From positions 11,036,001 through 11,100,000 of the forward strand of contig OX597829.1 in the NCBI GenBank assembly GCA_951406725.2: DNA of 64,000 nucleotides, given 5' to 3'. Within the stretch, counting starts at the first letter, position 1. Each line of letters begins with the position of its first letter. Source of the DNA: Octopus vulgaris. Its lineage: Eukaryota. Of this stretch, positions 1,046-60,252 are shown in pieces. The notes beneath the pieces were generated by a model. That model was not told the DNA's origin. It worked only from the letters and a program-made list of their open reading frames with translations, and did not search any database. The position numbers and the translations under genes are program-made.

Positions 1046-1698
<653 letters not shown>

Positions 1699-3042: not shown

Positions 3043-3702
3043 GTTTTATCCCTCAGACCTAATATTTTTTTTTTAAATTAACGTTATCGACTCTTTTTCG
3101 TACCAAGGGATACGATAACAGCGACCTAGTGACTGCCGGTTCAATATTCCTGGAGGTCGAGGGAAATGTATATTTTATGTTTATAATATTAGATTTCTTT
3201 TTGACTAGACACAATGACGAATTTTTGCAAAGGAAGAATTATTGTTGACTGTATGAAACCTCCAGTACTCTACTTACTGGTCGTTGATTTATCGTCCCCA
3301 AAGGGATGACAAACTAAGTCGAACCCTATGGGATTAGATCTCGGAATGTAAGACTGTAAGGAATTCAAGGCGATTCTTTACCATTCACCGCTCTTGTACA
3401 CTCAATATATTTTAGTTTATGAAGGAGACTTTCTCTAATATATATTCTGCAATGCTTCGAGTAAATTGCACCTCTGTTGTGTATATTTATAGTTGAAAGC
3501 GGGGTGGGGGGGAGGGCAAACATCTAAATAGAGAAACCTGAAGACTTGAGAAGAAAGAATGTTTGGAGAAGAATGGCTGGGAAAATGGTTGAAGGCCGCC
3601 CTGTGGGTACTTCATTCAACGAACATTCTGAAAGGGACAGATAGACAGAAACATAAAGCAAGAGAGAATAGAACTTCCGCCTTGACTAATATTTTATTTA
3701 TT

Positions 3703-4092
3703 CTTTTCTACTCTAGGCAAACGGCCCGAAATTTGGGGGGAGGGGGCCAGTTGATTAGATCGATCCCAGTGCGCAATTGGTTCTTAATTTATCGACCCCG
3801 AAAGGGTAAAAGGCAAAGTCGAATTTGGCGGAATTTGAACTCAGAACGTAGCGGCAGACGAAATACCTATTTCTTTACTACCCACGAGGGGCTAAACATA
3901 GAGAGGACAAACAAAGACAAACAAACGGATTAAGTCGATTATATCGACCCCAGTGCGTAACTGGTACTTATTTAATCGACTCCGAAAGGATGAAAGGCAA
4001 AGACCTCGGCGGATTTTGAACTCAGAACGTAGCCATGGGCGAAATACCGCTAAGCATTTCGCCCGGCGTACTAACGTTTCTGCCAGGTCGCA
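3703..4092 (-). mobile_element. SINE-B dimer (tRNA-derived head, gcctttcatcctttcggggtcgataaa core): Tx1-tailed monomer fused to a head-truncated monomer
   Basis: Two core copies. The junction gtaaagaaata|ggtatttcgtctgccg matches that at ~15850. Confidence 0.8.
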
Positions 4093-4399
4093 GTCTTCCC
4101 TGATATTTTATTTATTGATGACGAATGGTAAAGTTGATTTCAGTGGGATTCGAACTCATAGCACAAAGAGTCAGATCAAATACCGCAAGGAACTTTATAC
4201 AACATTCTAACACTCCCGTCAATTAGCCACCACATAGCAGAAATAATAATACCGAACAAAATAGCTTCTCATAGTTAATTATGCCAGTGGTTAAAACGAT
4301 ATATTCTCACAAGCAGTGTACACAGAGCAAGAGAATGTGTTTGTGTGTGTAACAAAACCTTCATAATGTTGTGTGTGTGTGTGTCTGTGTGGTGTGTTT

Positions 4400-7809: not shown

Positions 7810-10237
7810 ATGGAATTTACAGGTAAGATAGAACCGCTATTTTGGAATTCATCATTGAAGGATATTCCAGTACCTTCTAGAAAGGAATTTATTTTGAAAC
7901 TTATTAATAATATTAAGGATTTTGTTTCTAGAATTAAATGGAAAGCTTACTATTATAACTATAATATATCTAATTTTAATGATAGTATGAATGATAATTT
8001 TACCTCTAATTTTAAATCCAAAAAGGAACCCCCATTTAATAGAGAATTACAAATACTAGAAGATAATATTTGGAAGGTGGTGAAAAACATTAAATTTCAT
8101 AAATACCCAAACAGAAATAATGAATATTTAAGAAATTTAGCAATTAGAATTTAAAAAATGAGAAATATGGATGGTATTATTGTACAATCTGATAAAACTA
8201 GGAATCTCTATAAATTGGATGTTAAATTATATGATAACCTTTTAGAGAAAGAAATAATTAAAAAACATAAAATTGTTCCAGATAGTAAACTTTATAATAT
8301 TAATAAGGCCACTAAATTAGTAATGATAAACTATGAATTGGATAATAAAACTGAACCTTATGTACCTATGCACCCTAGAATTACTCTGAAAGACCATAAA
8401 GATAATTTTTATTCAGACCCTAAAGTTAGATTAATTTTTCCATGTAAATCTAACCTTGGTAAATTAAGTAAACTTATTTTAGATAAATATATTAAGAAAT
8501 TAAATAAACATAATTACTTAAAATTATGGTTTAGTAATGATAATACTTTGAATTGGTTTAATAATATTAAAGATAAAAATCGATATAAATTTATTCAAAT
8601 AGATATAGATAATTACTATTCTTCTATTAATGAAATTGTGTTTAATAAGGCCCTTATTTTTGCAATGAATAAAGTGGGAATGACATTTGAAGAAGTTAAT
8701 GTAATTAAAATGGCTAGGAAATCGTTTATTAAATATAAAAATAAATTATGGGCCAGGAAAGATACTAGAGATTTTTTTTGATATACCTATGAGAGCACCT
8801 GATTCTGCACAAGCTACGGATTTCGTAGGTATTTATCTTTTATCTGAACTCCAATTAGAAAATTTAAAAATAGAGGGTGGTTTATATAGGGATGACCTTC
8901 TACTAATTACTAAGAATTGCACTTATAGGAACCTAGAAGTATATAAGAAAAAACTTTATAGTTTCTTTAAAAGATATGGTTTAAGTATCACTATATATAA
9001 TGAGAATTTTAATGTTAATTATTTAGATGTTAATTTTAATCTAATTACAGGTAAAACACAACCATATCATAAACTTAATGAGAACCTTAGATATATAAAT
9101 GTTAATAGTAATCACCCACCATCAATTAAAAAATCGTTGATTAATAATATAAGTAAACGTATATCATTACTTTCTTATGATTTAGAGATTTTTAATAAAC
9201 ATGCTCCTTATTACAATGAGGCCCTTAGAGAGGCAGGTTATAGTAGTAATATCAAATTTTTTTAAAAATAAAGATAAAGATATAACTAATAATATTAGAG
9301 ATAAAAATATTAATAATAATTATAATAATTTTGTTAGTAATAGTGGTAATAATATTAGAAATTATAAAAATAAAAATAATATAAATAAAAATAAAATTAA
9401 TAACTTTAATAATTCTTTAAATGTTAATTATAAATATAAATCTGATAATAATAATATTAATATGATAAAGAAATATAATAATAACAATAATAATGACAGT
9501 TTTAATAATAAGAAGGAAAATAAGAATAAAATTTGGTTATAGTTCCTTATGGTGCTCAAGTTAAAACGAACATTATTAAAGAGATTTTAGATATTATTGA
9601 ACTATTTATTCGAGATAATCGTAAATATAAAAACATTTTCTCTAGTAATAATTTTGGAGTAGGTTATTCCACCACTAATAGTGTAGGTAGCATTATTTCT
9701 TTTAACAAATTTAAACTGAATAATTTTTATAAAAATAAATTATATAATAATACCAATAATAAAGACAAGACACTAATCAACTGTACATGTAGAGATAAAA
9801 CTAAATGTAAGTTAAATAATAAATGTGATATTAACGATGTAGTGTATAAATGTATAGTTACATTACATGATAAGAATAATAATAATAATAATGATAACTC
9901 AAACGCGATATATATAGGGTCCACTTCCTCTAAAATAAAATTAAGAATCACACAACATATGAATTCATTTAAAAATAAAAACTTAATTAACTCCACTGCA
10001 CTTAGCAAGAACATTTGGAGACTTAAATCCCAAAATATTAATTATAATTTATCTTGGGAAATAATTAGTAAAACTAAATCATATAGTATGGGAGCGAATT
10101 TTTGTTATTTATGTTCTAATGAGTTTAAGGAAATTTTATTTTATAAGCATGATAATTTACTGAATATCTGTGATGAGCGCAAAATAAAATGCAGACACAA
10201 GTTACTTTACTTATATAATAAATTTCTTGATAAATAA
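7810..10237 (+). pseudogene. Penelope RT/GIY-YIG polyprotein, interrupted by one TAA and three frameshifts
   Basis: SDKTRNLY, FIQIDIDNYYSSI, GLYRDDLL, NYLDVNFNL, YINVNSNHPPSI; Cys-rich CTCRDKTKCKLNNKC; VVYKC...IYIGST...LRITQHMNSF; C-terminal CYLC...CRH. Confidence 0.9.
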
Positions 10238-11780: not shown

Positions 11781-11990
11781 GATGCCGAGTTGGCCGAACC
11801 GTTAGCACACCGGGTAAAACGCTTAGAAGTATTTTGTCCGAAATTCTGTGAGTTCAAATTCCGTCGAGGTTGACCTTGCCTTTCATCCTTCTGGGTTGGT
11901 AAAATAAGCACCAGTTCAACAGTGGAGTCGATGTAATCGACTTACCTCTTCCCACCAAATTGCTAACCTTGTGTCATAATTTTAAATCAA
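11781..11990 (+). mobile_element. SINE-B copy (standard tail)
   Basis: Head gagttggccgaaccgttagcac, B-box gagttcaaattcc, core gcctttcatccttctgggttggtaaa. Confidence 0.75.
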
Positions 11991-12007
11991 TATGAGATCT
12001 ATCTAAA

Positions 12008-14799: not shown

Positions 14800-16066
14800 C
14801 TAGCTCAAAAGTCACCTGATAGGGCGGCTTTTAAGCTAGTGTATGGCTTTTAAGCAACTGACCCCGAATGGGAAGACTCTGCAAACAGATCTCTGACTTG
14901 TTTTGCAGAATTTGTTGCAATTGCTTCCTCCAGAGACATATCCAAATGATGATCATAGTCGTCGCAAAAAAATCATGTAAAAATAAAAAAATCGCCGAAA
15001 ACAATCGCAGTAATGAAAGCATAGGAATCGAAAATTTCAAGATTGCAGATCTGGATTCGGTCCAGAATGTCTTTAATTTACTCACGGAGCTAACCTTTTG
15101 ATTATAAAAAACTATTATCATACAAAAAAATTTGTCGCAAAAAATCACGTAAAAAAATCGCCGAAAACAATCACAAAAATGAAAACTTAGGAATTCAAAA
15201 TTTTAGTATTGTGACTCTGGATTCAGCCTGGAATGTTTTTAATTTACTCACGGAGTCAGCCTGATTCTAAAATGGTATGATATGTTGGGCTATGGCCTCT
15301 AGGAGTAAAGTTGAAAAAGTGTAACACACGGACATTCACATTTATTATATCATATATTATTATATTATATTAAGGCGGCGTGCGGGCAGAATCATTAGCT
15401 CGCCGAGCGAAATGTTTAGAGTATTTCGTCTGCCGCTACGTTCTGAGTTCAAATTCCGCCTAGGTCGACTTTGCCGTTCATCCTTTCAGGGTCGATTAAA
15501 TAAGTACCAGTTACGCACTGGGGTCGCATTAATCGACTTAATCCATTTGTCTGTCCTTGTTTGCCTCTCTGTGTTTAGCCCCTTGTGGATAGTAAAGAAA
15601 TAGGTACTTCGCAAAATAAGGCGGTGAGCTTGCAGAAACGTTAGCACGCCGGACGAAATGCTTAGCGGTATTTCGTCTGCCGCTACGTTCTGAGTTCAAA
15701 TTCCGCCTAGGTCGACTTTGCCTTTCATCCTTTCTGGGTCGATTAAATAAGTACCAGTTACGCTCTGGGGTCCCATTAATCGACTTAATCCGTTTGTCTG
15801 TCCTTGTTTGTCCTCTCTGTGTTTAGCCCCTTGTGGGTAGTAAAGAAATAGATATTTCGTCTGCCGTTACGTTCTGAATTCGAAATACACCATGGTCGAT
15901 TTTTCCTTTCATCCTTTTGGGGTCGATAAAATTAGTACCAATTACGTACTCGGGTCGATATAATTGAGTTAATGCCTTACCCCGAAATTTGAGTCCTTGT
16001 GCTTCCAGCAGAAAGGATTTATTAAAGTTGAAAAAGTGTGACACACTGACATTTATTATATTAGAT
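14800..16066 (-). mobile_element. Probable non-autonomous Helitron carrying nested SINE-B copies
   Basis: On the - strand it starts A|TCTAATATAATAAATG (~16065) and ends in an imperfect hairpin + CTAG|T (14800). Internal ~150-bp-period direct repeat 14984-15258. The 5' end also occurs at 15306-15350. Confidence 0.55.
15372..16018 (+). mobile_element. Tandem SINE-B cluster: Tx1-tailed monomer (15372-15612) plus dimer (15619-16018)
   Basis: Three core copies. Heads aaggcgg(c/t)g...gcagaa; tails tttgtctgtccttgtttg...tagccccttgtgg..agtaaagaaata. Confidence 0.85.
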
Positions 16067-35222: not shown

Positions 35223-37251
35223 TGCTACCAAGTTGTCGCGTTGTTTTTCGTCGCGGTGGAAGTCATGTCGTACGTGAAAAATTGAACATTTGAAGCATGA
35301 CCACAGGTAAAGCATTTGGTTTTTGGGAGCTTAGTGGGGTCTGCTGTTTGTATTTAAGTATTTTTTCGAACAGGGATCTCCACTGGGTTCCAGGCATTTT
35401 TTTGCCAGGAGTCATGCAAGAAGATTCACTTCGTAGTGAGAATTGAGTTGGGAGGCGCGTCCCTCCGAAAATGTTTTGGAATTTTCTATGACTGTGTTTG
35501 TGCCCTTTCAAGATTTTTACCATAAAGGATAAGAGTACAGCCAGAGTTGGACGGAATACTATTTGTGCTGTGAAGGACTACCAGTTTGGATTACCAGAGT
35601 AGCAGAATTGTGTTGTGTTGCCATTTTCGACTATCTTCCTTCGCTCTTTCTTCTCCTGTCTGTCTTTCTGATCATTTTTGAGTTTCTTTATAGACTTTCA
35701 TTTGAACATTTTGATTTTTGTTTGTGGATTTTTATTATTTTTGTTTTGGCTATCAACATGGCAACTGTGAAATCCGCTTTGGAGTGGAAAATTGTGGCCC
35801 CCGAAAAATGGTTGAAAAATTATACGGAGAGAACGGTGGTGTTAAGGACTTGTTCCAGGGTCCTTGACACCATCAAGGTCTTCTCTCAGGAAGAAATTAA
35901 GGAGTTGGCAGACTATCTGCAGGGGGGAGAAGTATGGAACTGTGTGTGTACTTTTTGACGCCCCTGTGGAAGCACGTGATTTTACGAGCATGCTTTGGAG
36001 GGGGAGAAAATTTTGTTTCTCCCTACTTACGGCGGTAGAAAGTTGACAAGAGCCTGGATGTGTGGTCTGCCACCCGGTATAGAGGCCGAGTGGAAAGAAG
36101 ATACTATCCGTCGGGTCCCGGGTGGCGGGCCTGCCAGGCTTTTAAATGTAAAAATGTGGCCTGCGGTTGATTGGGTTGGGTCAAAAGCAATTTTGACCCT
36201 ATGGATCCAATCAGTCGATGATCTGGTTTTACCAGATTTTTTAACAATGGCCGGTTCCAGGTATCTGGTGATGGTTGAGGGACGTCCCCCCAAGTGACAT
36301 CTGCGCCTGGAATCGGGCCATATAAAGAACTGTTGCCGGGAACAGACAGGGGTCTGGAACAGTTGGCTGAAAAGGTGTCCCCTAGTCCCCCACTGGAGGA
36401 AAAAGTCGAGGAGGAGGCAACATCCTCGAAAACAAAGGGGGAAAAAGAAAGAAGGGGCAACAATGGTTTCCTACCGATGAATCCTGAGACGGCGGGGCGG
36501 GGGTCCTCCGGAGATGTCGGAGGAATTCCATCCTACCGTCGTAAAAAGAAAAAAGAAGAGAAAGAAGAAAAATGGGGCATTGCCGGCGACGGCATGTCCT
36601 GAGATCACTTCGGTTGGATGTGTGCAACCAGAGCGGAGAGAAGATAACCTCGTCATTCGGATGTGTGCCACCGAGCGAGGGAGTTGAGGCCCCTCCCAGT
36701 AAAAGTGGTTAAGAATATATGTTCTATCTCAGTGGAAGAGCTATTGACAGTTTCGTGGAGAATGATATGGATAATCGGGTCCTGAGAAACCTGACTTGTA
36801 TAGACAGCCCAGAGTGGCCTTCGCAGGTGGCTGCTCTGGTGCTGGAAAGAAAGTACTGTGATCTTAGAATTGACTCATGTAAAAACGAGAATTATAGAAT
36901 TCTTTTTTGGAGACCCGGATTGCAGTTTCAGGAATGCCTGCAAGTTGCAAGGAAATTGCACGGGGAAGATTTGTAGAGGTTTATCGCCTCTAATTTGTGT
37001 ATAAATTATGTTTTGTATTTGTGTAGACTTTTGAGTTCAAATATATTGTATTTTAAACTGTAAGAGGGTTAATACCTCTGTATATGTGTTTTTAAAGAAC
37101 AATGTTTTAAAGAAGCAGAGGGTCGGCGGGCGCTTTCTCTCTTCTCCCATCCTTATCATCTTGTATCATTATCATTCGCCTCATCAATGTCTTGTCTAGC
37201 CCGCAAAGCTACCCATCTCTGTACTGCCTCTATGGCAAATGAAACGAATAA
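35223..37251 (+). mobile_element. ORF1-only (HAL1-like) non-autonomous Tx1-related retroelement
   Basis: 15-bp TSD (35208-35222 / 37252-37266); decayed ORF1 homologous to the Tx1 ORF1 at 59848; no EN/RT; 3' TGCC-N5-GGCA hairpin + AATAAA. Confidence 0.85.
35758..36976 (+). pseudogene. Tx1-like ORF1 protein, frameshifted, decayed zinc knuckle
   Basis: TERTVVLRT, RGEKYGTVCVLF, LFLPTYGGRK, VMVEGRPPK*HLRLESGHIKNC align with EKRTVVFKT, RGRAYGTVDVRF, VLFPSYRGRR, VQVEGRKPTCYACGKKGHIRVDC. Confidence 0.8.
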
Positions 37252-37628
37252 AAGTAGCTTGCTTACCAACCACATGGTTCCGTGTTCAAGGCCACTGCGT
37301 GGCATCTTGGGCAAGTGCCTTCTATTATAGCCTCGGGCCGACCAAAGCCTTGTGAGTGGATTTGGTTGACAGAAACTGAAAGAAGCCCGTCGTATATATG
37401 TATATATATATGTATGTGTGTGGGTGTACGTTTGTGTGTCTGTGTTTGTCCCATGAACATTGCTTGACAACTGGTGCTGTTGTGTTTATGTCCCCGTAAC
37501 TTAGCGGTTCGGCAAAAGACCGATAGGATAAGTAGTAGGCCACAGACAAATGACTGAAACAAAAGAGAATAGCGTCGTGTGGTTATCGACTGCTATTTCC
37601 AGAAAACATTGGTGCCTTGTTGTACCAC

Positions 37629-41032: not shown

Positions 41033-41553
41033 AAATAATATTCTAATTGCAATATCTTTTGTTATCTAATTTGCTCACTAGCTCCCTCTCTAAACTATTT
41101 TCTCTGTAGTTACTTCTTTTAATTCTTTGCTATTCTAATTGCCGTTTCCGTTATAATCTCTTTTTACAACGTTCCACCAGATGTTGTTGGTGATCACTCT
41201 CATCAGTCGCCACCAAAATAATTTGCTAATCTGATTTTTAGCTTCTAGGGTACCTGGATTCCGATGTATAATTCCAATTTAAACCCATCACAAATTTGTT
41301 ATCTGTGTTTCAACCATTTAACAATACACATATTTGAATCCACTGGCGTAACAAATTCTCTATCTGAATAAGACCTGGACCACTCCATGAGGGTTTTTTT
41401 CCATGTCTACACACTGGAACATTCGGAAGATCCCATCTGTACTTGCCAGGAAGATGGAACTGCCTGATCAGATTTGCAAGTCTTTTATACATACTTCTGT
41501 TATTTGTCAATCTCACAGACCCAGCGTTCATTTGATATTTCATTCTAGTCAAA

Positions 41554-41990
41554 TGCGGTGAGCTGGCAGAATTGTTAACGCGTCGGAAAAAATACCTAGC
41601 GGCGATTTTCCGTCCTTACGTTCTGAATTCAATTGCCGCAAGGGTCGACTTTGCCTTTAATCCTTTTGGGGTCGATAAAATAAATACCAGTTGAGTATTG
41701 GATTCGATGTAATCGATTTTCGCTGAAATTGCTGGCCTCGTGCTGAAGGTTAAAACTATTATTATTGTTGTTGTTATTCAAAAACATTTTGTTTTGGTTG
41801 TTGTTATCGTCGTCGTTGTTGCTGTTGAGCCTCAAGTCGGCAGAATTGCTAGCACGCTGGACAAAATACTTGGCGACATCTCTCCCTTCTTTACATTCTG
41901 AGTTCAAATTCCGCTGAGGTCAACTTCGTCTTTCATCCTTTCGGGGTCGATAAAATAAGTACCGTCACCCAAATTTCAGACATTGTGTAG
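41554..41990 (+). mobile_element. Two SINE-B copies
   Basis: gcggtgagctggcagaattgttaac...ggggtcgataaaa at 41554 and a second copy from ~41836. Confidence 0.75.
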
Positions 41991-50578: not shown

Positions 50579-50770
50579 TTTTACTCGTTTCAGCCATGCG
50601 GCTGCGGTCATTCTTGAGCACCACTGTGGTCTTTCTGATTTCCTCAGTCGGGAGTGTTTCGCATCACCACTCTTGTTTGTGCCTTTGCCCCAACTGTTGG
50701 CCCGTTTAGTGTATAAGAGAGTTTGATTCCCTTGCCCTCGTCCGCATCTCATGTTAAGCTGTTAGTTCTG
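50579..50770 (-). mobile_element. 3' end of the CR1/L2-group LINE (second copy)
   Basis: Similar to 52860-53050. Confidence 0.8.
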
Positions 50771-50794
50771 TTGGGACTGTTTCGAGGAGAAAAG

Positions 50795-51388
50795 CAATCT
50801 TTCAGGATGATAGTGCACCAATTCTCACAGCTAAAGTGGTTACTGAATGGCACGAGGAGCATTCTAGTGAAGTTGAACATCTTATTTGGCAAAACACAGT
50901 CCCCAGATCTCAATATTATTGAACATTTATGGTAAATTTTAGAAAAACAAGTCGATATCCTCCACCATCATCACTACAAGAACTGGAGACTGGAAACTGG
51001 AGAAGGCGGTGAGCTGGTAGAAATGTTGGCACGCCGGGCGAAATGCTTAGCAGTATTCCGTCTGTCTTTACGTTCTGAGTTCAAATTCCGCCGTGGTCGA
51101 ATTTGCCTTTCGATAAATTAAGTACCAGTTTATGCACTGGGCTCGATGTAATCGACTTAATTCCAATGTCTGTCCGTGTTTGTCCCCTCTATGTTTAGTC
51201 CCTTGTGGACAATAAAGAAATATGAACTGGAGACTGTTTTAGCTGAAGAATGAACAAAAATTCCTCCGGAAACAATTCAAACTTTGTAAGAGTCCATACC
51301 TCATAGAATTCAAGCTGTAATTACTGCCAAAGGCGTTCATACTCCATATTAAAATTAATTTGTTTGAAATTTTAAGGTGTTTCCATTA
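50795..51388 (+). mobile_element. Tc1 transposase 3' remnant interrupted by a SINE-B
   Basis: FQDDSAPI...QSPDLNIIEHLW; continues after the SINE with ESIPHRIQAVITAKG. Confidence 0.8.
51003..51222 (+). mobile_element. Tx1-tailed SINE-B monomer with TSD
   Basis: Flanked by aactggaga on both sides; tail gtttgtcccctctatgtttagtcccttgtggacaataaagaaata. Confidence 0.85.
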
Positions 51389-52859: not shown

Positions 52860-54275
52860 TTACCCGTTTCAGCCATGAGGCTGCGGTCATTCTGGAGCAC
52901 CACTGTGGTCTTTCTAATTTCCTCAGTCGCGAGTATTTAGCATTACCACTCTTGTATATGCCTTTGTTATAGCTTTTGGCCCATTTAGTGTATAAGGGAG
53001 TTTGTTCCCCTTGCCCTCATCTGCATCTCATGTTAGGCTGTTGGTTCATCTGGTATTGTGGAGAAGAGGATGTCTAGTTCCTTTTTGAAATCATCTACTT
53101 CCACCTGATGCAGATTTTAAAAATTTTTGTGGCAAGGCATTGAAGAGCTGTGGGCCTCTAAACCCTAGTCTATTGTAGTATGCATCCTGAATTTTGATGG
53201 AGTGGTTGGTGCGTTTGGTACAATACAATGGCGGCCAGTTCTAATATTTGTATAACACTCAATGCCCGAAATTAGGTACCTGTCCTAGAGTTTTTCATAT
53301 GTAGATTATTGCACACCTCTCGCGTCTTCGCTCCAGGGACTAAAGATGCAGTTCTCTCAGCCTATCCTTGTAGCTCATCCGCTGCACTTTCAAACTCTAT
53401 AGCATAGTAGCGTTAGACTGCTTCAAGCTCCACTGTTACTTTGGTACTGTGTGGTGACAATAACTGGGAGCAGCAGGGTCAACATAGTTTCTTGGTTTCT
53501 TGTCTTGGAGGAACTCAGCATCCATTCTGCCAGTTGTTTGCACTTGGCTGCCATTTTGATAATATGCATATGAAATGATGCGTCATTGCACATACTGATC
53601 CGCAAGTCTTTCTCTGCCTGTAACTCTAGGATTGTAGTACCTTCGGGTCCCTTATATGTCGGCTGTAGTGCATTCATGACTTGATAGTACAGTATTTGAA
53701 ATTTTCCAGCATTAAACTGCATGTTGTTTATTTCGGCCCACTTGTATATCGAATTCAGGTTCCGCTGTAAGCTTGCGATGTCATGATTTTTTGTTGCCTG
53801 TGATAATTTTGTATCATCGGCATGGCTAGTGACAGTGGCTGTCCAAGTGAACGTGGGCATGTCTAAAAGGGTTATTATGAACAGTAATGGCCTCAGAATA
53901 GTTCCTTGGGAAACGCCACTTATGATTTGAGTTTCCTCAGAAAGGGCACCATTGGCTGCAACTACCTGACTTCTGCCTTTAAGGAATTCATGCAGCCACT
54001 CTCCTACTTTACCAGCAATGCCAAGGTTTCGTAGCTTATGAGATATCATGCCGTGATCTACCTCAACAAATTCCTTTGGAAAGTCAAGGTATATCACGCT
54101 GACGTATGAATGTTTCAAAACCCAGTCAAAGTACTGCAGGAGTTGTACGAGGAAGCCTCTTCCTGGACGCAAGCCATGTTCTGTATTGTTCATTTGGTCA
54201 TTTTCTTTTAGGAACATTATCAGCTTCTTTCTGATGATTCGCTCCATGACTTTACTAATAGACACTGGCCTTTAG
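52860..54275 (-). mobile_element. 5'-truncated CR1/L2-group LINE (degenerate RT + 3' UTR)
   Basis: VIYLDFPKEF..VDH, SGVSQGTILRPLLF, HADDTK, WAEINNMQFN..K, EKDL; the 3' end matches the SINE-A tail. Confidence 0.85.
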
Positions 54276-54387: not shown

Positions 54388-55005
54388 TCTTTTACTCTTT
54401 TACTTGTTTCAGTCATTTGACTGCGGCCATGCTGGAGCACCGCCTTTAGTCAAGCAAATCGAACCCGGGACTTATTCTTTGTAAGCCCAGTACTTATTCT
54501 ATCGGTCTCTTTTGCCGAACCGCTAAGTGACGGGGACGTAAACACACCAGCATTGGTTGTCAAGCAATGCTAGGGCGACAAACACAGACACACAAACATA
54601 TACACACACGCTTATATATATATATATACATATATACGACAGGCTTCTTTCAGTTTCCGTCTACCAAATCCACTCACAAGGCATTGGTCGGCCCGGGGCT
54701 ATAGCTGAAGACACTTGCCCAAGATGCCACGCAGTGGGGCTGAACCCGGAACCATGTGGTTGGTTAGCAAGCTACTTTATTTCATATAATTTGCCATTTA
54801 GGCATTTACAAAGAGGGGACAAACAAGGACAGACAAATATAAAGGGTGAAGTAGCTTAACACAGTTACAATTTTCGAATGAAATTACGGATAAGATTATA
54901 AACAATGAATTTTACGAAGGCAATGTTTAAAAATATTAATGATCATGTCGAAGGACGGACACCCAGCCATCCGGGTAGAACCTTTACTTTCTGATCCGGT
55001 CACAC

Positions 55006-58000
55006 TTACCTGGTGCCAAACATACCGATCTTGTATGCCACAGGCTTCCATCTTTTCACAAACATATCTCGTGACAGACACCTCTTCTCCAGCCTGATTT
55101 TGCTACAGAGGTGGTAACTAAAAAAGTTAATCAACCCCTGGCCGGAGACAAAGGTGCCTGTCACTATACCTTTCGTACGCGTCTTCCATACTGTTTCTTT
55201 CAGTATGGCTACTACACAGAAAAAACAAGCCTTTCTTTCCCTGTTAAGGAAAGGGGGCAGCACAATCTCGATGATAGACTCAGCTGATAGCTGTACTCTT
55301 CCCATCACTGACAACAGTTGTTCAACAAAAGCTATCAGTCCCGATAACTCCGGACACTCCACGAATGCGTGCAAGACGGTCTCCCTATCCTGCTCACATC
55401 GCGGGCATGTCGGCGAGACGGCACTACCGTGCCTTGAAAGCTTGTCGCGAACAGGTAAAGCCGCACGGAAACACTGCCAGGCTAGGGATTTCTGGTAATT
55501 ATACAGATACCCCGGCCCGAACGTCCTCCGGAACAGGTTGACCAACTGATTTTCATCGTAGCCCAGGGTCTCCCCCAAGGCGTCTTCGGACTTAATCTCC
55601 ACTAACCCGCTATAGAAATCCGTGGTGGAACTCCTGTTGCCGGCGTTGCCCACCCGAGATAGTAGCTGGAGCGCCTGACGGCACTCCAAATGCCGTTCAC
55701 TCAGTTTAGGTCTCCGCTTGATCCATGCACCGATGTCCGTTAGGGATGTTAACTGGGGAAGGTAGAACCGGACGTGCGGCGACCACACCTGCTCTCCATC
55801 CAGGTAAATACAGAGGTGCCTCAACCTTAACGCGAGTTTTCGCATCCTCAGCCAAGGCATCCCTAGCCCACCCTTCAGCGGTTTCTGGCAGCAGACAGAG
55901 CGCTTTACAAGTGGCTTTCCTCCTTTCCACAAAAATCGGAAAAGGATTCTCTCCAACTTGTTCAGCCACAAATCGAGGCAAGGCACCACGGTCAGACGGT
56001 AGGTGATTACTGATGCTATAAACATCTGCACCACCTCCGCCTTCCCTAGCAGGGATAACGCCCGCCCAGACCAGGTCTGGGTTAGAGCGGTCACCTTGTT
56101 GGCCACCTCACTCCAATTTTTCTCAATCTGGATCTGGCCCGAACCAGACTCCGAGCAGCTTAACAGGACCTTCCGTCCAACGCCCTACGACGTTATTGGA
56201 CGGCATCGGCTTGCCCCTCCAGGTGCCGAGTTGCAAACCGACCGACTTGTCCTTGTTAACCTTTGCTCCTGCCACCGCCTCGTAGCTTTTGATGGCCTCT
56301 TCCACCACTGGAAGCTGGCCTTCGTCTGCCACGATGATGGAGGTGTCATCCGCATACGCCGTAGCTCCTCTTCCACACCATAGATCATGCGGCGCGCCCC
56401 CTAGTGCCTCCAACTTCCGCAGCAAAGGCTCAAGAGCCAATACGTATAGGAGCGAGGACAGGGGACACCTTTGACGAACTGAACGCTCGATCCTGAACGG
56501 CTTCGAAAAGGAACCGTTCACCTTGACTACAGACTCGATGTCGCTATAAAAGCAGCGATCCAACCTCGAAAGGTCGGGCCTAGGCCAGCCTCTCCGAGGA
56601 CCGCCGCCAGGTACCGATGGTCGACCCTATCATATGCTTTGGACTGGTCTAAATGTACCAGTGCTCCCCCTGCGCCAGAAAGCTTCCTCACCCTCTCTAA
56701 GGAGTAGTGTATAAGGTGGAGATTGTCGTGGATCGTTCTGCCGGGGATAGCGCACGTTTGCGCTTCCCCGACAAGTTTGTCCACGACCCGCGCCAACCTT
56801 TTTGCTAGCACCTTGGCCAGAATCTTTAACTCTGTGTTTAACAGAGTTATGGGCCTGAAGTTCCCTATCTCGTCCCCCTTGTTCGGGTCCTTCCTGATCA
56901 ACGTCACCGCCCCCCGGCTCGCAGACTTGGAAATCCTCCCATTCTGCTGCCAGTTGGCGTAGACGCTAGCCAGCAGGTGCCCGAACAAGTCTGGCATACT
57001 TCTATAAAATTCATAGGGCAGACCATCGAGACCCGGCGACTTCTCCCCGGGGCACTTGCCCAACACCTCGATTACTTCCTCGGCTGTGATTGGCCCTTCA
57101 CAGCACTCAGCCTCTCGTGTCGAGAGGCGCGGGCCACCAGACAGGAAGTCCCTAAGGGCCTCACTTTGATCCAGCGTCCCGCACCTCCCGAACAACTCGG
57201 CGAAGTGCTTGTGAAGTGCCTCACACATCTCGTCCCGCTTCTTGATCGTGCATCCGTTTTCATCAACAAGAGACCCAATTGTGGCATCGTTTCCACGCTG
57301 TGTTTCTATCGTACGGGCCCATCCGGCAACATTAATTCCCTCACGGCCCAATGCTCGTACTTTAGCCCGGACTCTACATCCCTCATGTTTGGTTTTGAGG
57401 TGACGGTCTAATGCCGTTCTCGCCGCTAAAATGTGAGATGCAGAGCCCAACCTCAACGCCTCCTCTAAGTTCTTAACTAGTTGCCCTTCTATTCTAGCCC
57501 TATCTAGTCTTAGTTGTTTACTAAATCTAATGGACTCGAATCGAATGGCTCTTTTGAGGGTGAACCACCACCGGTTATTAACCACGGCTCCGGTTAACGC
57601 CCTCTGCACTAACACCTTAATCCGGCTACGGTATGCCTCGCGTGTCAAAATAGACTTGTTCAGCTTCCAGTAGCCGGTTCCTATCTTAAGTGTGCTATCT
57701 ATGTCCAGTCTACACGTGACCATTCTATGGTCAGTATAGGGCGCCTGGACGAGCTGTGGACAACTAAAACTAGACTTATCTCTAGTTCTTATCACTATCC
57801 TGTCTAGATAAGACTTGAACCTTCCGTCGCCACTCATCCAGGTCCACTCTGGGACGTTCGGATGGTCAAGTCTGTAATGATCTGCTAGCTGAAACCGCTT
57901 AAGCAGATCCACGAGACGTGAGTTCACTTTCCTATAGATCGAGCCAACGCTATCGATGTGTACGTCAACGATAGCATTAAAGTCCCCTAATATCACTAAA

Positions 58001-58404
58001 GTCTTCGACGTCACGAGAAAGCCCTCTAGGCGCCGATAAAAATCAGTTTGGAAACCTCTAGCACAAGGTGCATAGAGTCCGATCAACCTGAAGGCCTTAC
58101 TGCTGTATGTCACATCAAGGACGACCAGCCCACCTTCTGGGTCTACATAGACTGTACTTGTCTGTAGAGCCAAGTCTTTACGGATCAGTACCACTACGCC
58201 CCCTCGCCCTCCGGTCTGGCCAGGAGACATGATTTTCTCGTAGCCATTCAGGAGAGGCGAGAAGGTTTGTAGGCTGTCCAGCTTGGTCTCTGTAGCAACC
58301 ATCACATGTATATCATGTGATCTGAGGTCGTCGAGGAAACAAGCCTGCTTCCACTTCGAACTCAGACCACGCACATTTAAACAACCAAGGTTAAGCGAAG
58401 CCAT
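55006..58404 (-). pseudogene. Tx1 ORF2 (apurinic endonuclease, reverse transcriptase, C-terminal zinc finger), two frameshifts (~56545, ~56115)
   Basis: LNVRGL, TETK, LGDFNA, SYLDRI, TDH, GYWKLN, KSPGLDGLP, NFRPITLLN, LDQSKAYDRVDH, RQRCPLS, YADD, GGLGMP, CPRC...ETVLHAFVEC. Confidence 0.95.
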
Positions 58405-58421
58405 TACAAAAAGTAAAAGTT

Positions 58422-59848
58422 CTACTTACATTTCGTTGGAGGGGTGGGGGCCGACCTCACCACACGTTTGTGGGCCCCTTCTTTCTCCTCTTTCTTCAGA
58501 TAGTCCGGCAAGTTCGCGATATGCCGGATGGCGTTTGGGTGTCTGTCTTTTAATTGTTTGAACGTTGTTTCCGCAATCCACGCGTGTCTATTTCGATCTT
58601 TGTATTTGTTGTACAGTCTTGCTGACTGATGCTGAACCACAATATCGTTTATGTATTTGTCTTGTGTGTCGAATTCAATTAATATGAGTTCATTTTCTTT
58701 TTTGTCTTCTTTTTCTGGGCCAGTTGAGCGGGATTTTTTTTTTCGTGTCTGTGGTGTGTCTTTGTTTTTATTATTTTTTGTAGGGGATGTGGACGGGGAT
58801 GCTGCACGAATTATTTTACGAACTGGTGTAAATCCCCCCTCTGATACCTTCATGGTATCGTCTGGGGTAGCAATAGTTTGTTCGGTAGGCGCCGCAGTTT
58901 TTAGGGGGTGGGAGGTTTTAATAGTGTAGGGGTTTGTGAGTGCGAGGGCTGGGTTTTTTCTTCAGTCTGTTTTGGGGTTGGCACCGTAACGGCAGGAGTG
59001 GGATTTTTTGTTTTTGTAGGGGTAGGTGTGTTTGCAAGGGTAGGGACTTTTTTATTATCTGAGGGGCCTGGTGTCTGCGGTTTCTTTTGCTTGTCTGGAC
59101 AGTCTACACGAATGTGGCCCTTTTTGCCGCAGGCGTAACAGGTGGGTTTTCGGCCTTCGACCTGTACCCTGAGGGCTACGTTCTCGCCCACGAGCACCCT
59201 CTCAGGAAGGAGCTGAAGGTCCTCCGCTGTTCCTTGAATTAATATATTAATGTTACGCCCGAGCCAAAATCGAGGGGTAGAGCATGTTACTTCTAGTATT
59301 TTTATTTTGTCCGCCCTTTTATATAGCAGGGCGGCCACTACCTCTACCGGATCTACTTCCGGCGGGGCTTCTACAATCCTGACCCGGGACGTCCTGCGTC
59401 CCCTATAGCTTGGGAAAAGTACCACCTCCTTGGTTTTTAGGGGGTTCCCAGAATGACCGCGGGCCATTTCTTCCCCTGAGAAGCGGACATCCACAGTGCC
59501 ATATGCCCGTCCCCTGGCGACGTACACGATGTCCTTCCAAATCGGGGACAGGCATTTCTCGATGGTGCTTTTTTCAAAGTGTTTGAACCTTCTGCTTTGT
59601 GGACAGAAAGTTTTAAACACTACGGTCCGCTTCTCGGTCTCCACGATACTGGCGGAGGGTGATATTTTAACATCACCACCCTCCTCTTGCATTCTTTTAA
59701 ATAGCTCGACGAGCTGGTTGACATCGATGTCAATGTTGTCGGTAGCCACTGCGGCTACCTCAGAAAATTTTTTAACATTGCTCTCCTCAAGAGCACTACT
59801 TTCGTGAATAATTTCAACAGACATTATTCTGTTGAAATTAGACAACAC
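58422..59848 (-). CDS. Tx1 ORF1 (RNA-binding, CCHC zinc knuckle), one frameshift near 58900
   Basis: CYACGKKGHIRVDC, then a Pro/Thr/Lys-rich tail continuing in ORF 58853-58422. Confidence 0.88.
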
Positions 59849-60252
59849 AAAAATTACGAGTATTGGTTTCCCACAAAACTGGGAAACCTATAGAAAGTTT
59901 TTCTTCCAAAGTAGTTCAAAAAAGCAGTTCAAAAATTCCAATTCCCACCCCCATTCGGGGGAGGGGCACGAAAATAGTCTGGCAGGACTATATATAGTCA
60001 CGTAAATAAAAAGCCACAGTGGCTAACAGTTCAACGGTAAGAAATTATTCAATTATTTCCCGGTAAAACCGGAGAACAAGACAGTTCAGCAACGTTTAAA
60101 GGCAAATTTTCAGTAGTAGGAATTCAACAATTAACAACACAGCAAAACTCTTACCGGGAAGAAAACGCGTCCACACCGTAGTACGGTAGGCAAAGTCACT
60201 CTTCTGTCAGTGAGGTTAGCAAAGCTACTTACCACACAGCCACTCCTGCGCC

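What the first reader, a model, noticed from the sequence alone, without database searches (positions are those of the whole stretch)
15372..16018. SINE-B subfamily carrying a Tx1-derived 3' tail (tail swap)
Seen: SINE-B at 15793-15850 shares 21 identical nt (tttgtctgtccttgtttgtcc) with the Tx1 3' UTR (54817-54837, -) and then resembles the GATA-Tx1 terminus. Other SINE-B copies (11781, 41554) have a different tail. The monomer at 51003-51222 ends at this tail with a TSD (aactggaga). Inference: a SINE switched partner LINE by capturing a Tx1 3' end; SINEs with Tx1-derived tails are rarely reported.
Basis: partly seen in the sequence, partly recalled or inferred. Interest (0 to 1): 0.7.

Follow-up and report, generated by a model that had tools for sequence, protein, structure and literature searches.

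The report
Octopus SINE swaps Tx1-type tails
A very abundant short jumping element in this octopus-like genome ends in the same 60-letter tail, with a predicted small hairpin, as a group of Tx1-type retrotransposons that likely copy it; this tail likely replaced an older tail from the same group, and the element often inserts into its own copies, building chains like the one in this window.

Summary
SINE-B tail T1 (15788-15850) is homologous to the poly(A)-less 3' terminus of a radiation of L1/Tx1-type LINEs in this genome. A profile built from 27 LINE ends alone finds only T1 tails and LINE ends in 464 kb (38 of 38 hits). T1 is the youngest SINE-B tail, has at least 125,772 copies, and works as a true 3' end, with target-site duplications (TSDs) of mostly 11-20 nt. 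The interpretation needs three corrections. (1) The window's LINE is probably not the donor or main partner: another clade matches better, and only 67 T1 copies sit at its fixed target. (2) The older tail T2a also matches a Tx1-type terminus, so the swap is likely within the group, not from another clade. (3) The locus is a nested array: SINE-B inserts into its own position 50 (74 matches against 1 and 5 at two other positions), so T1 is internal in about 45% of units. SINE-LINE tail sharing and tail exchange are known. A shared Tx1-type tail was not found in 10 literature searches. This scan noted the shared tail before on other DNA (e1-9594145, e1-9580941).

The parts
15372..15602 (+). SINE-B unit 1: tRNA-like head, central domain and T1 tail; read as the 5' part of an outer composite element
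15603..15612 (+). Degenerate left copy of the SINE-B position-50 target (7 of 10 identical to the right copy at 15851-15860); likely the TSD of the nested insertion
   Evidence: nested pattern
15618..15850 (+). SINE-B unit 2 (head, body, T1); likely a monomer inserted at position 50 of the outer composite's second body
15788..15850 (+). T1 tail: TGTC/pyrimidine tract, hairpin and A-rich end, homologous to the Tx1-type LINE terminus
15793..15813 (+). 21 nt identical to the window LINE 3' UTR at 54817-54837 (-)
15826..15838 (+). Predicted 4-bp hairpin with a 5-nt CTTGT loop, conserved with stem changes across the LINE families
15851..16020 (+). Third SINE-B body starting at position 50 and ending in a degenerate older T2a tail
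51003..51223 (+). T1 monomer with a compensatory stem variant; 13-nt TSD at 50980-50992 and 51224-51236
3692..4097 (-). Composite head-body-T1-body-T2a copy
11781..11995 (+). Old SINE-B copy with T2b tail
41552..41770 (+). Old SINE-B copy with a T2b-like tail
54776..60213 (-). Full-length L1/Tx1-type LINE (fam1): ORF1 with CCHC knuckle, ORF2 with endonuclease, RT and zf-RVT (frameshifted here), inserted in a SINE-A head with a 14/15-nt TSD; its 3' end shares the T1 tract
1046..1560 (-). 5'-truncated sister LINE (fam2) in (CTAT)n; its terminus resembles the T1 hairpin end; a second copy ends at about 547

Best explanation
SINE-B is a tRNA-headed SINE whose youngest subfamily ends in a 60-nt tail homologous to the poly(A)-less 3' terminus of this genome's L1/Tx1-type LINEs; the tail was likely captured from one such family, likely replacing an older tail from the same group, and likely lets their enzymes copy the SINE. 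Steps: (1) Shown: all LINE families sampled end in a TGTC tract, a small hairpin and AATAAA, and T1 has the same layout. (2) Inferred: the LINE reverse transcriptase binds this hairpin and starts target-primed reverse transcription a few bases after it. Shown: TSDs, and insertions truncated down to the hairpin alone. (3) Inferred: T1 has no run of four T, so a Pol III transcript would run on past it, and the bases after the tail (GGTA in the commonest subtype) pair with the nicked target. Shown: 12 of 31 TSDs start with GGTA. (4) Shown: T1 elements insert at GGTA-TTTCG at position 50 of other SINE-B copies. Inferred: transcripts from the inner head then carry tail plus host body, which gives the head-body-T1-(body-T1)n-body-T2a composites that move as units. 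The window locus is such a nest. The donor and current partner family were not identified; they are probably not the window's LINE.
For: Homology: 24 of 27 LINE UTRs beat all 300 dinucleotide shuffles (local score), and 26 of 27 do so end to end. A LINE-only profile gave 38 hits at E<0.01 in 464 kb: 33 T1 tails and 5 LINE ends, with no microsatellite or SINE-A hit. Structure: RNAalifold on 20 ends predicts a 4-bp stem with a 5-nt loop and double-sided changes in 3 of 4 pairs; a 3-pair register on the 29-row alignment is 87% paired with 11 double changes, reached by 0 of 500 shuffles. Function as a 3' end: TSD of 8 nt or more in 30 of 48 T1-ended elements against 3 of 200 swapped flanks; hairpin-only truncated insertions with TSDs (L206, L210, L213, L225, L227). 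Order: median divergence from own consensus is T1 6.0% (n=29), T2a 13.0% (n=19), T2b 17.0% (n=15); T1 against T2a p=4e-5. Older tail: T2a matches the end of an ORF1-only Tx1-type element at 25 of 29 nt, score 36 against a shuffle maximum of 26; T2a-ended elements have 10-16 nt TSDs in 13 of 28. Self-insertion: 74 matches at position 50 against 1 and 5 at two other positions; of 23 independent loci read, 21 have an inner T1 element and 19 of these resume with the target copy.
Against: No LINE carrying the whole T1 tail was found: 0 of 30 loci read out of 164 matches, 0 of 30 out of 69, and none apparent among the first 100 of 1,413 listed matches. T1 is a mosaic with respect to the sampled families: its tract matches the fam1+L284 clade and its hairpin the fam5 clade, which lie on different branches. 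The hairpin is weak on its own: 2 of 29 sequences reach p<0.05 against shuffles, the consensus energy is -2.9 kcal/mol, and within SINE copies only 2 of 116 show a compensatory change while several break the stem. The covariation shuffles ignore relatedness. The T2b match to Tx1-type ends is not significant (7-9 of 300 shuffles), and T2b-ended copies show no TSD (0 of 8). T2a lacks the TGTC tract, and its match is to a non-autonomous element, so the direction of transfer is open. The TSD set was not an unbiased sample and some T1 TSDs lie in microsatellites. No RNA ends or activity were observed.
Confidence: 0.7

Rival explanations
1. One reading: SINE-B depended on a LINE of another clade and switched to Tx1 by capturing T1.
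For: T2b is the oldest tail, has no significant match to Tx1-type ends and shows no TSD in 0 of 8 copies. Tail exchange between clades is known (PMC4824008, PMC5786205; passages).
Against: T2a, the tail next older than T1, matches a Tx1-type terminus and gives similar TSDs. T2a, T2b and T1 all carry a CTTGT-loop hairpin. No other LINE end in the window resembled T2 on reading. A clade switch may still have happened earlier, at T2b.
Confidence: 0.2
2. The window's SINE-A-targeting LINE (fam1) or its direct ancestor donated T1 and mobilises it.
For: 21-26 nt identity in the tract; 67 T1 ends lie at or near the fam1 target.
Against: Its hairpin and spacer differ from T1, and L284 scores higher. 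All 30 fam1 copies are followed by the same target start, against 67 of 125,772 T1 ends, about 47 of them offset by 4 nt.
Confidence: 0.12
3. The multimers arise mainly by template jumping or tandem duplication at the GGTA microhomology, not by nested insertion followed by read-through.
For: Most composites lack an upstream host head. Head-only tandem arrays show that local amplification happens.
Against: Nests with the host head and a duplicated target exist at position 50 and are rare at two other positions. Composites flanked by a single TSD move as units.
Confidence: 0.2
4. The similarity is a chance match of low-complexity T/G/C sequence.
For: The tract is simple, and weaker hits to a TG-rich stretch inside SINE-A appear in BLAST.
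Against: Shuffle controls and the LINE-only profile, which hits no SINE-A or microsatellite at E<0.01. The match is terminal in both elements and includes the hairpin and A-rich end.
Confidence: 0.02

Closest known systems
SINEU and Tx1-Mar of crocodilians (Kojima 2015, PMC4494074; parts 1-4 of 5 read)
   Same: A SINE inferred to be mobilised by Tx1-clade LINEs; sequential tandem insertions at one target; Tx1 families targeting microsatellites or other transposons.
   Different: SINEU has snRNA heads and poly(A) tails, and the paper found no LINE sharing its 3' terminus; the link rests on shared targets. Here the link is a shared poly(A)-less terminus, and the SINE does not share the fixed targets of the families tested.
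Stringent L1-clade pairs: maize ZmSINE2/3 with LINE1-1_ZM, Chlamydomonas SINEX-3_CR with L1-1_CR (Ohshima 2012 PMC3472496, 2013 PMC3747384; passages)
   Same: An L1-group 3' end of about 45-80 nt shared with a SINE, with a hairpin showing compensatory changes. Only 3 of 58 SINE-LINE pairs had L1 tails.
   Different: Those are plant and algal L1 lineages. This is an animal Tx1-type radiation, with successive tails and self-nesting.
Tail exchange in SINE superfamilies (MetaSINEs PMC4824008; Kojima 2018 PMC5786205; mollusc SINEs PMC4758252; passages)
   Same: One head and central domain combined with several tails; template switching proposed as the mechanism.
   Different: The partners named there are CR1, L2 and RTE or are unidentified. 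Tx1 does not occur in the text of the first two.
HAL1 half-L1 elements (PMC5753468, passage)
   Same: The ORF1-only elements (family X) whose end matches T2a have this layout.
   Different: They derive from Tx1-type, not mammalian L1, and end in the hairpin terminus.
Octopus SINEs OK, OR1, OR2 (Ohshima and Okada 1994; text not held; seen only as cited)
   Same: Abundant tRNA-derived octopus SINEs; SINE-B may be one of them, or the tRNA-Deu class listed in PMC13282606.
   Different: Could not be compared; no sequence was available.

Membership tests
tRNA-derived SINE (SINE2) | tRNA-related head with A and B boxes | tested here: inconclusive
   Box-like motifs are visible by eye (consensus recalled), but ARAGORN and Rfam gave no hit
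tRNA-derived SINE (SINE2) | Short, non-coding, interspersed, high copy, with TSDs | tested here: met
   233 nt; 125,772 exact tail-motif matches; TSD in 30 of 48
tRNA-derived SINE (SINE2) | Pol III transcription | not testable with these tools
   Only contigs were available
SINE with LINE-derived (stringent) tail | 3' end homologous to a LINE 3' terminus beyond chance | tested here: met
SINE with LINE-derived (stringent) tail | Shared 3' hairpin with compensatory changes | tested here: met
   Across families; weak per sequence and within the SINE
SINE with LINE-derived (stringent) tail | One partner family with a near-identical tail and matching age | tested here: not met
   Best match L284 clade; no family with the full T1; the search was incomplete
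SINE with LINE-derived (stringent) tail | Tail required for mobilisation | not testable with these tools
   Needs a retrotransposition assay
L1 group of non-LTR retrotransposons (the LINEs) | APE endonuclease plus RT closest to L1 ORF2p | tested here: met
   Pfam; human L1 ORF2p E 7.9e-66 against R2 8e-22
Tx1 clade (the LINEs) | Target preference for microsatellites or other repeats | tested here: met
   fam1 in the SINE-A head, fam2 in (CTAT)n, fam3 in (ATT)n, one family in (CT)n
Tx1 clade (the LINEs) | RT phylogeny grouping with Tx1L, Keno, Kibi, Koshi | not testable with these tools
   No named Tx1 reference was returned
Deu/Nin-domain SINE | Central domain homologous to Deu/Nin | not tested

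The most novel reading that the evidence does not exclude
Octopus Tx1-type LINEs read their RNA by a conserved poly(A)-less hairpin terminus. One SINE has tracked this radiation through three successive hairpin tails (T2b, T2a, T1), and in its youngest form the SINE's own read-through bases choose the landing site, a feedback loop that makes it insert into itself and grow into multimers, with a different self-target in related species.
Probability: 0.35. Interest if true: 0.7.

Novelty: new variant of a known kind. Interest (0 to 1): 0.52.

Why it matters
Animal L1-group elements are the textbook case of relaxed, poly(A)-based template choice, and only 3 of 58 catalogued SINE-LINE pairs had L1 tails (PMC3472496, passage). 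A SINE with over 125,000 copies that carries a Tx1-type hairpin terminus points to stringent recognition in this branch. It also gives a natural series of tails and sister enzymes with which to test what the reverse transcriptase binds and how RNA-target pairing and endonuclease preference divide target choice. The nested multimers show one way composite SINEs and internal LINE-derived segments can arise. The general phenomena, shared tails and tail exchange, are well known, which caps the score.

Tried and rejected
Exact donor: four pattern searches that excluded SINE context and four protein searches for sister families (40 further ends fetched) found no LINE with the whole T1 tail. Window LINE as partner: rejected by target counts. 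(CTAT)n family as main partner: at most 243 matches, many double-counted. A LINE family fixed on SINE-B position 50: 32 heterogeneous matches that look like mutated T1 ends, flanks not read, and none among 267 non-SINE termini held. TSD length as a marker of partner: it does not separate T1 from T2a. Per-sequence hairpin significance: mostly not significant. The first pair count was one column out of register (53.5% paired) and was redone; the register was chosen after seeing the alignment. The first tree omitted the genome rows through a script fault and was redone. Naming the clade through homologs, Atlas or cluster names gave nothing. tRNA and Rfam scans were blank. The 1994 octopus SINE paper is not held. 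A possible RNA run holds the SINE but is a guess and contigs only, so no expression claim is made.

Full report
Setting. The window lies in a 2.8-Gb genome, G000, which is octopus-like: an Octopus sinensis protein matches one LINE family at 80-95%.

Observation. The 21-mer is at 15793 (+) and 54817-54837 (-) and nowhere else in the window. The element at 54776-60213 (-) is a full-length LINE with a CCHC knuckle in ORF1 and endonuclease, RT and zf-RVT domains in ORF2. An intact sister copy is closest to human L1 ORF2p among solved structures (E 7.9e-66, against 8e-22 for R2). The (CTAT)n elements at 547 and 1046 are ends of a second family, about 58% identical in ORF2. The monomer at 51003 ends at T1 with a 13-nt TSD.

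The tail is a LINE terminus. Protein searches recovered many more families, forming one clade. I extracted 27 termini; one further row, L309, gave no terminus and was dropped. All end without poly(A) in a TGTC/pyrimidine tract, a small hairpin and an AATAAA-like signal. The window tail beats all 300 dinucleotide shuffles for 24 of 27 UTRs by local score and for 26 of 27 end to end. A profile built from the 27 LINE ends, with no SINE sequence in it, was run over 400 kb of arbitrarily placed genome stretches plus the window. It gave 38 hits at E<0.01: 33 T1 tails and 5 LINE ends, one of them in the training set. The termini were first located with the help of the SINE tail, so their boundaries, though not their letters, are not independent of it. 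The low-complexity explanation fails.

Hairpin. RNAalifold on 20 ends predicts a 4-bp stem with a 5-nt loop and double-sided changes in 3 of 4 pairs, at only -2.9 kcal/mol. A three-pair count on the 29-row alignment gave 87% paired and 11 double changes, reached by 0 of 500 shuffles; the register was set after a misplaced first try, and the shuffles ignore relatedness. Single sequences are mostly not significant (2 of 29 at p<0.05). Among 116 SINE tails, 88 have the canonical stem, 2 a compensatory change, and several break it. The hairpin is a prediction with fair comparative support.

T1 works as a 3' end and is the youngest tail. TSDs of 8 nt or more flank 30 of 48 T1-ended elements, against 3 of 200 swapped flanks; most are 11-20 nt and some lie in microsatellites (the set comes from all loci held, not a random sample). 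Several insertions are truncated down to the hairpin alone and still have TSDs (L206, L210, L213, L225, L227). In the 400-kb sample, 84 body hits split into 30 T1, 34 T2 and 20 unclassified. Median divergence from each class's own consensus is 6.0% (T1, n=29), 13.0% (T2a, n=19) and 17.0% (T2b, n=15); T1 differs from both (p=4e-5 and 6e-7), while T2a against T2b does not reach significance (p=0.065). The terminal 20-nt motif occurs 125,772 times. Contigs bridging body and T1 occur in runs of three other coded organisms (X7, X9, X13), so the capture is probably older than their split.

Which LINE? Probably not the one in the window. All 30 near-identical copies of that family are followed by the same target start: 26 continue as SINE-A, 2 as a tandem LINE and 2 as another element. 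Only 67 T1 ends lie at that site, about 47 of them shifted by 4 nt. At most 243 lie next to (CTAT)n. The best whole-tail match is the older L284 clade (62 against 50), sister to the window's family. The hairpin half matches a separate clade (L194, L196, L301). No LINE with the complete tail appeared in 30 of 164 loci, 30 of 69 loci or the first 100 of 1,413 listed matches. The donor is unsampled, extinct or recombinant.

Was it a change of partner clade? Probably not at this step. T2a and T2b also carry a CTTGT-loop hairpin with a different stem. A scan for that hairpin outside SINE-B led to family X: elements of 1.7-1.9 kb with only a Tx1-type ORF1 (CCHC; E down to 1e-32 to the LINE ORF1s) and the same terminus layout. 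T2a matches their end at 25 of 29 nt (score 36, shuffle maximum 26 in 300). T2b shares 11 nt, which is not significant (7-9 of 300). T2a-ended elements have 10-16 nt TSDs in 13 of 28, and T2b-ended in 0 of 8. So T1 likely replaced another tail from the same group; the origin of T2b is open.

How the locus is built. Of 51 T1 ends in an unbiased set, 21 run into a SINE-B body at position 50, 2 into head position 16, and 28 into genomic DNA. Genome-wide, 25,999 tail motifs are followed exactly by the position-50 sequence. A search for a SINE-B head directly after the position-50 target of another copy gave 74 matches, including tandem-amplified arrays, against 1 at a control position and 5 at position 16. 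The 30 loci read are 23 independent sites: 21 have an inner T1 element, and 19 of these resume with a second copy of the target. In 12 of 31 T1 TSDs the target itself starts with GGTA, against a background of 0.27%. The subtype with a different last stem base tends to be followed by AGAA instead (3 of 7 against 1 of 17; small numbers). I infer that read-through bases after the tail pair with the nicked target, that position 50 is therefore a preferred site, and that transcripts from the inner head yield composites, which move as units with one TSD. Endonuclease preference could also contribute. The window locus reads as an outer composite (15372-15602 plus 15851-16020) with a monomer (15618-15850) nested at that site between degenerate target copies. 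In runs X9 and X13 the leading tail junction among the listed loose ends is head position 16, not position 50.

Known and new. Shared SINE-LINE tails and tail exchange are established (PMC4824008, PMC4758252, passages; PMC5786205, part 1 of 5 and passages). L1-group tails are rare: 3 of 58 pairs (PMC3472496 and PMC3747384, passages). Kojima 2015 links SINEU to Tx1-Mar by shared target and found no shared 3' terminus (PMC4494074, parts 1-4 of 5). An octopus repeat annotation lists L1-Tx1 and tRNA-Deu classes without pairing them (PMC13282606, parts 1-2 of 3 and its supplement; PMC8967140, passages). HAL1 is described in PMC5753468 (passage). Ten searches returned no SINE with a Tx1-derived tail. 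The 1994 octopus SINE paper, Repbase, Dfam and SINEBase could not be consulted and may already describe SINE-B; bioRxiv supplements were closed. The Deu/Nin label for the central domain is recalled, not tested. This scan noted the shared tail on other DNA (e1-9594145, e1-9580941); I saw those notes after my own tests.

Verdict. The feature is real: a new variant of a known kind, interest 0.52. Shown: the homology, terminal function, age order and self-insertion. Inferred: hairpin recognition, within-group succession and RNA-guided target choice. Not found: the exact donor.

Noticed in passing
window 54776-60213 (-); L001-L030: A very young LINE family (99-100% identical copies) inserts at one base in the SINE-A head with a 14/15-nt TSD; 30 of 30 copies share the target start, and some stack in tandem.
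   Followed up: partly
L448-L453; L388-L447: ORF1-only (HAL1-like) elements of 1.7-1.9 kb with a Tx1-type ORF1 and terminus, in at least two subfamilies.
   Followed up: partly
L121-L150, L282/L297, L061-L090, L181-L189: Sister LINE families with distinct targets: (ATT)n (intact, in tandem arrays), (CT)n, (CTAT)n, and a fixed site in another repeat.
   Followed up: partly
window 54399-54442 (-) and 52860-52901 (-): The SINE-A tail matches the 3' end of another RT-bearing LINE in the window (32 of 42 nt; score 44 against a maximum of 38 in 500 shuffles); CR1-like by my reading, untested.
   Followed up: partly
window 15308-15351 and 16025-16065: An imperfect duplication of about 45 nt flanks the whole nested locus, much longer than the usual TSD; unexplained.
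   Followed up: no
window 50702-51350: The 51003 monomer sits in a decayed transposase-like sequence (SPDLNIIEHLW motif, Tc1/mariner-like by recall) and has a 10-nt partial re-copy of the target at its 5' junction.
   Followed up: partly
L476-L482: A tandem array of more than 14 SINE-B heads with a 67-nt period, grown from a nested insertion.
   Followed up: no
runs X9, X13 against X7, X10: Related organisms differ in the leading listed tail junction: head position 16 against position 50.
   Followed up: partly
window 37212-37269: A short diverged LINE-like terminus directly upstream of a SINE-A head at the same target site.
   Followed up: no
window 8155-10234 (+): Broken ORFs without a Pfam hit; Penelope-like by eye, untested.
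   Followed up: no
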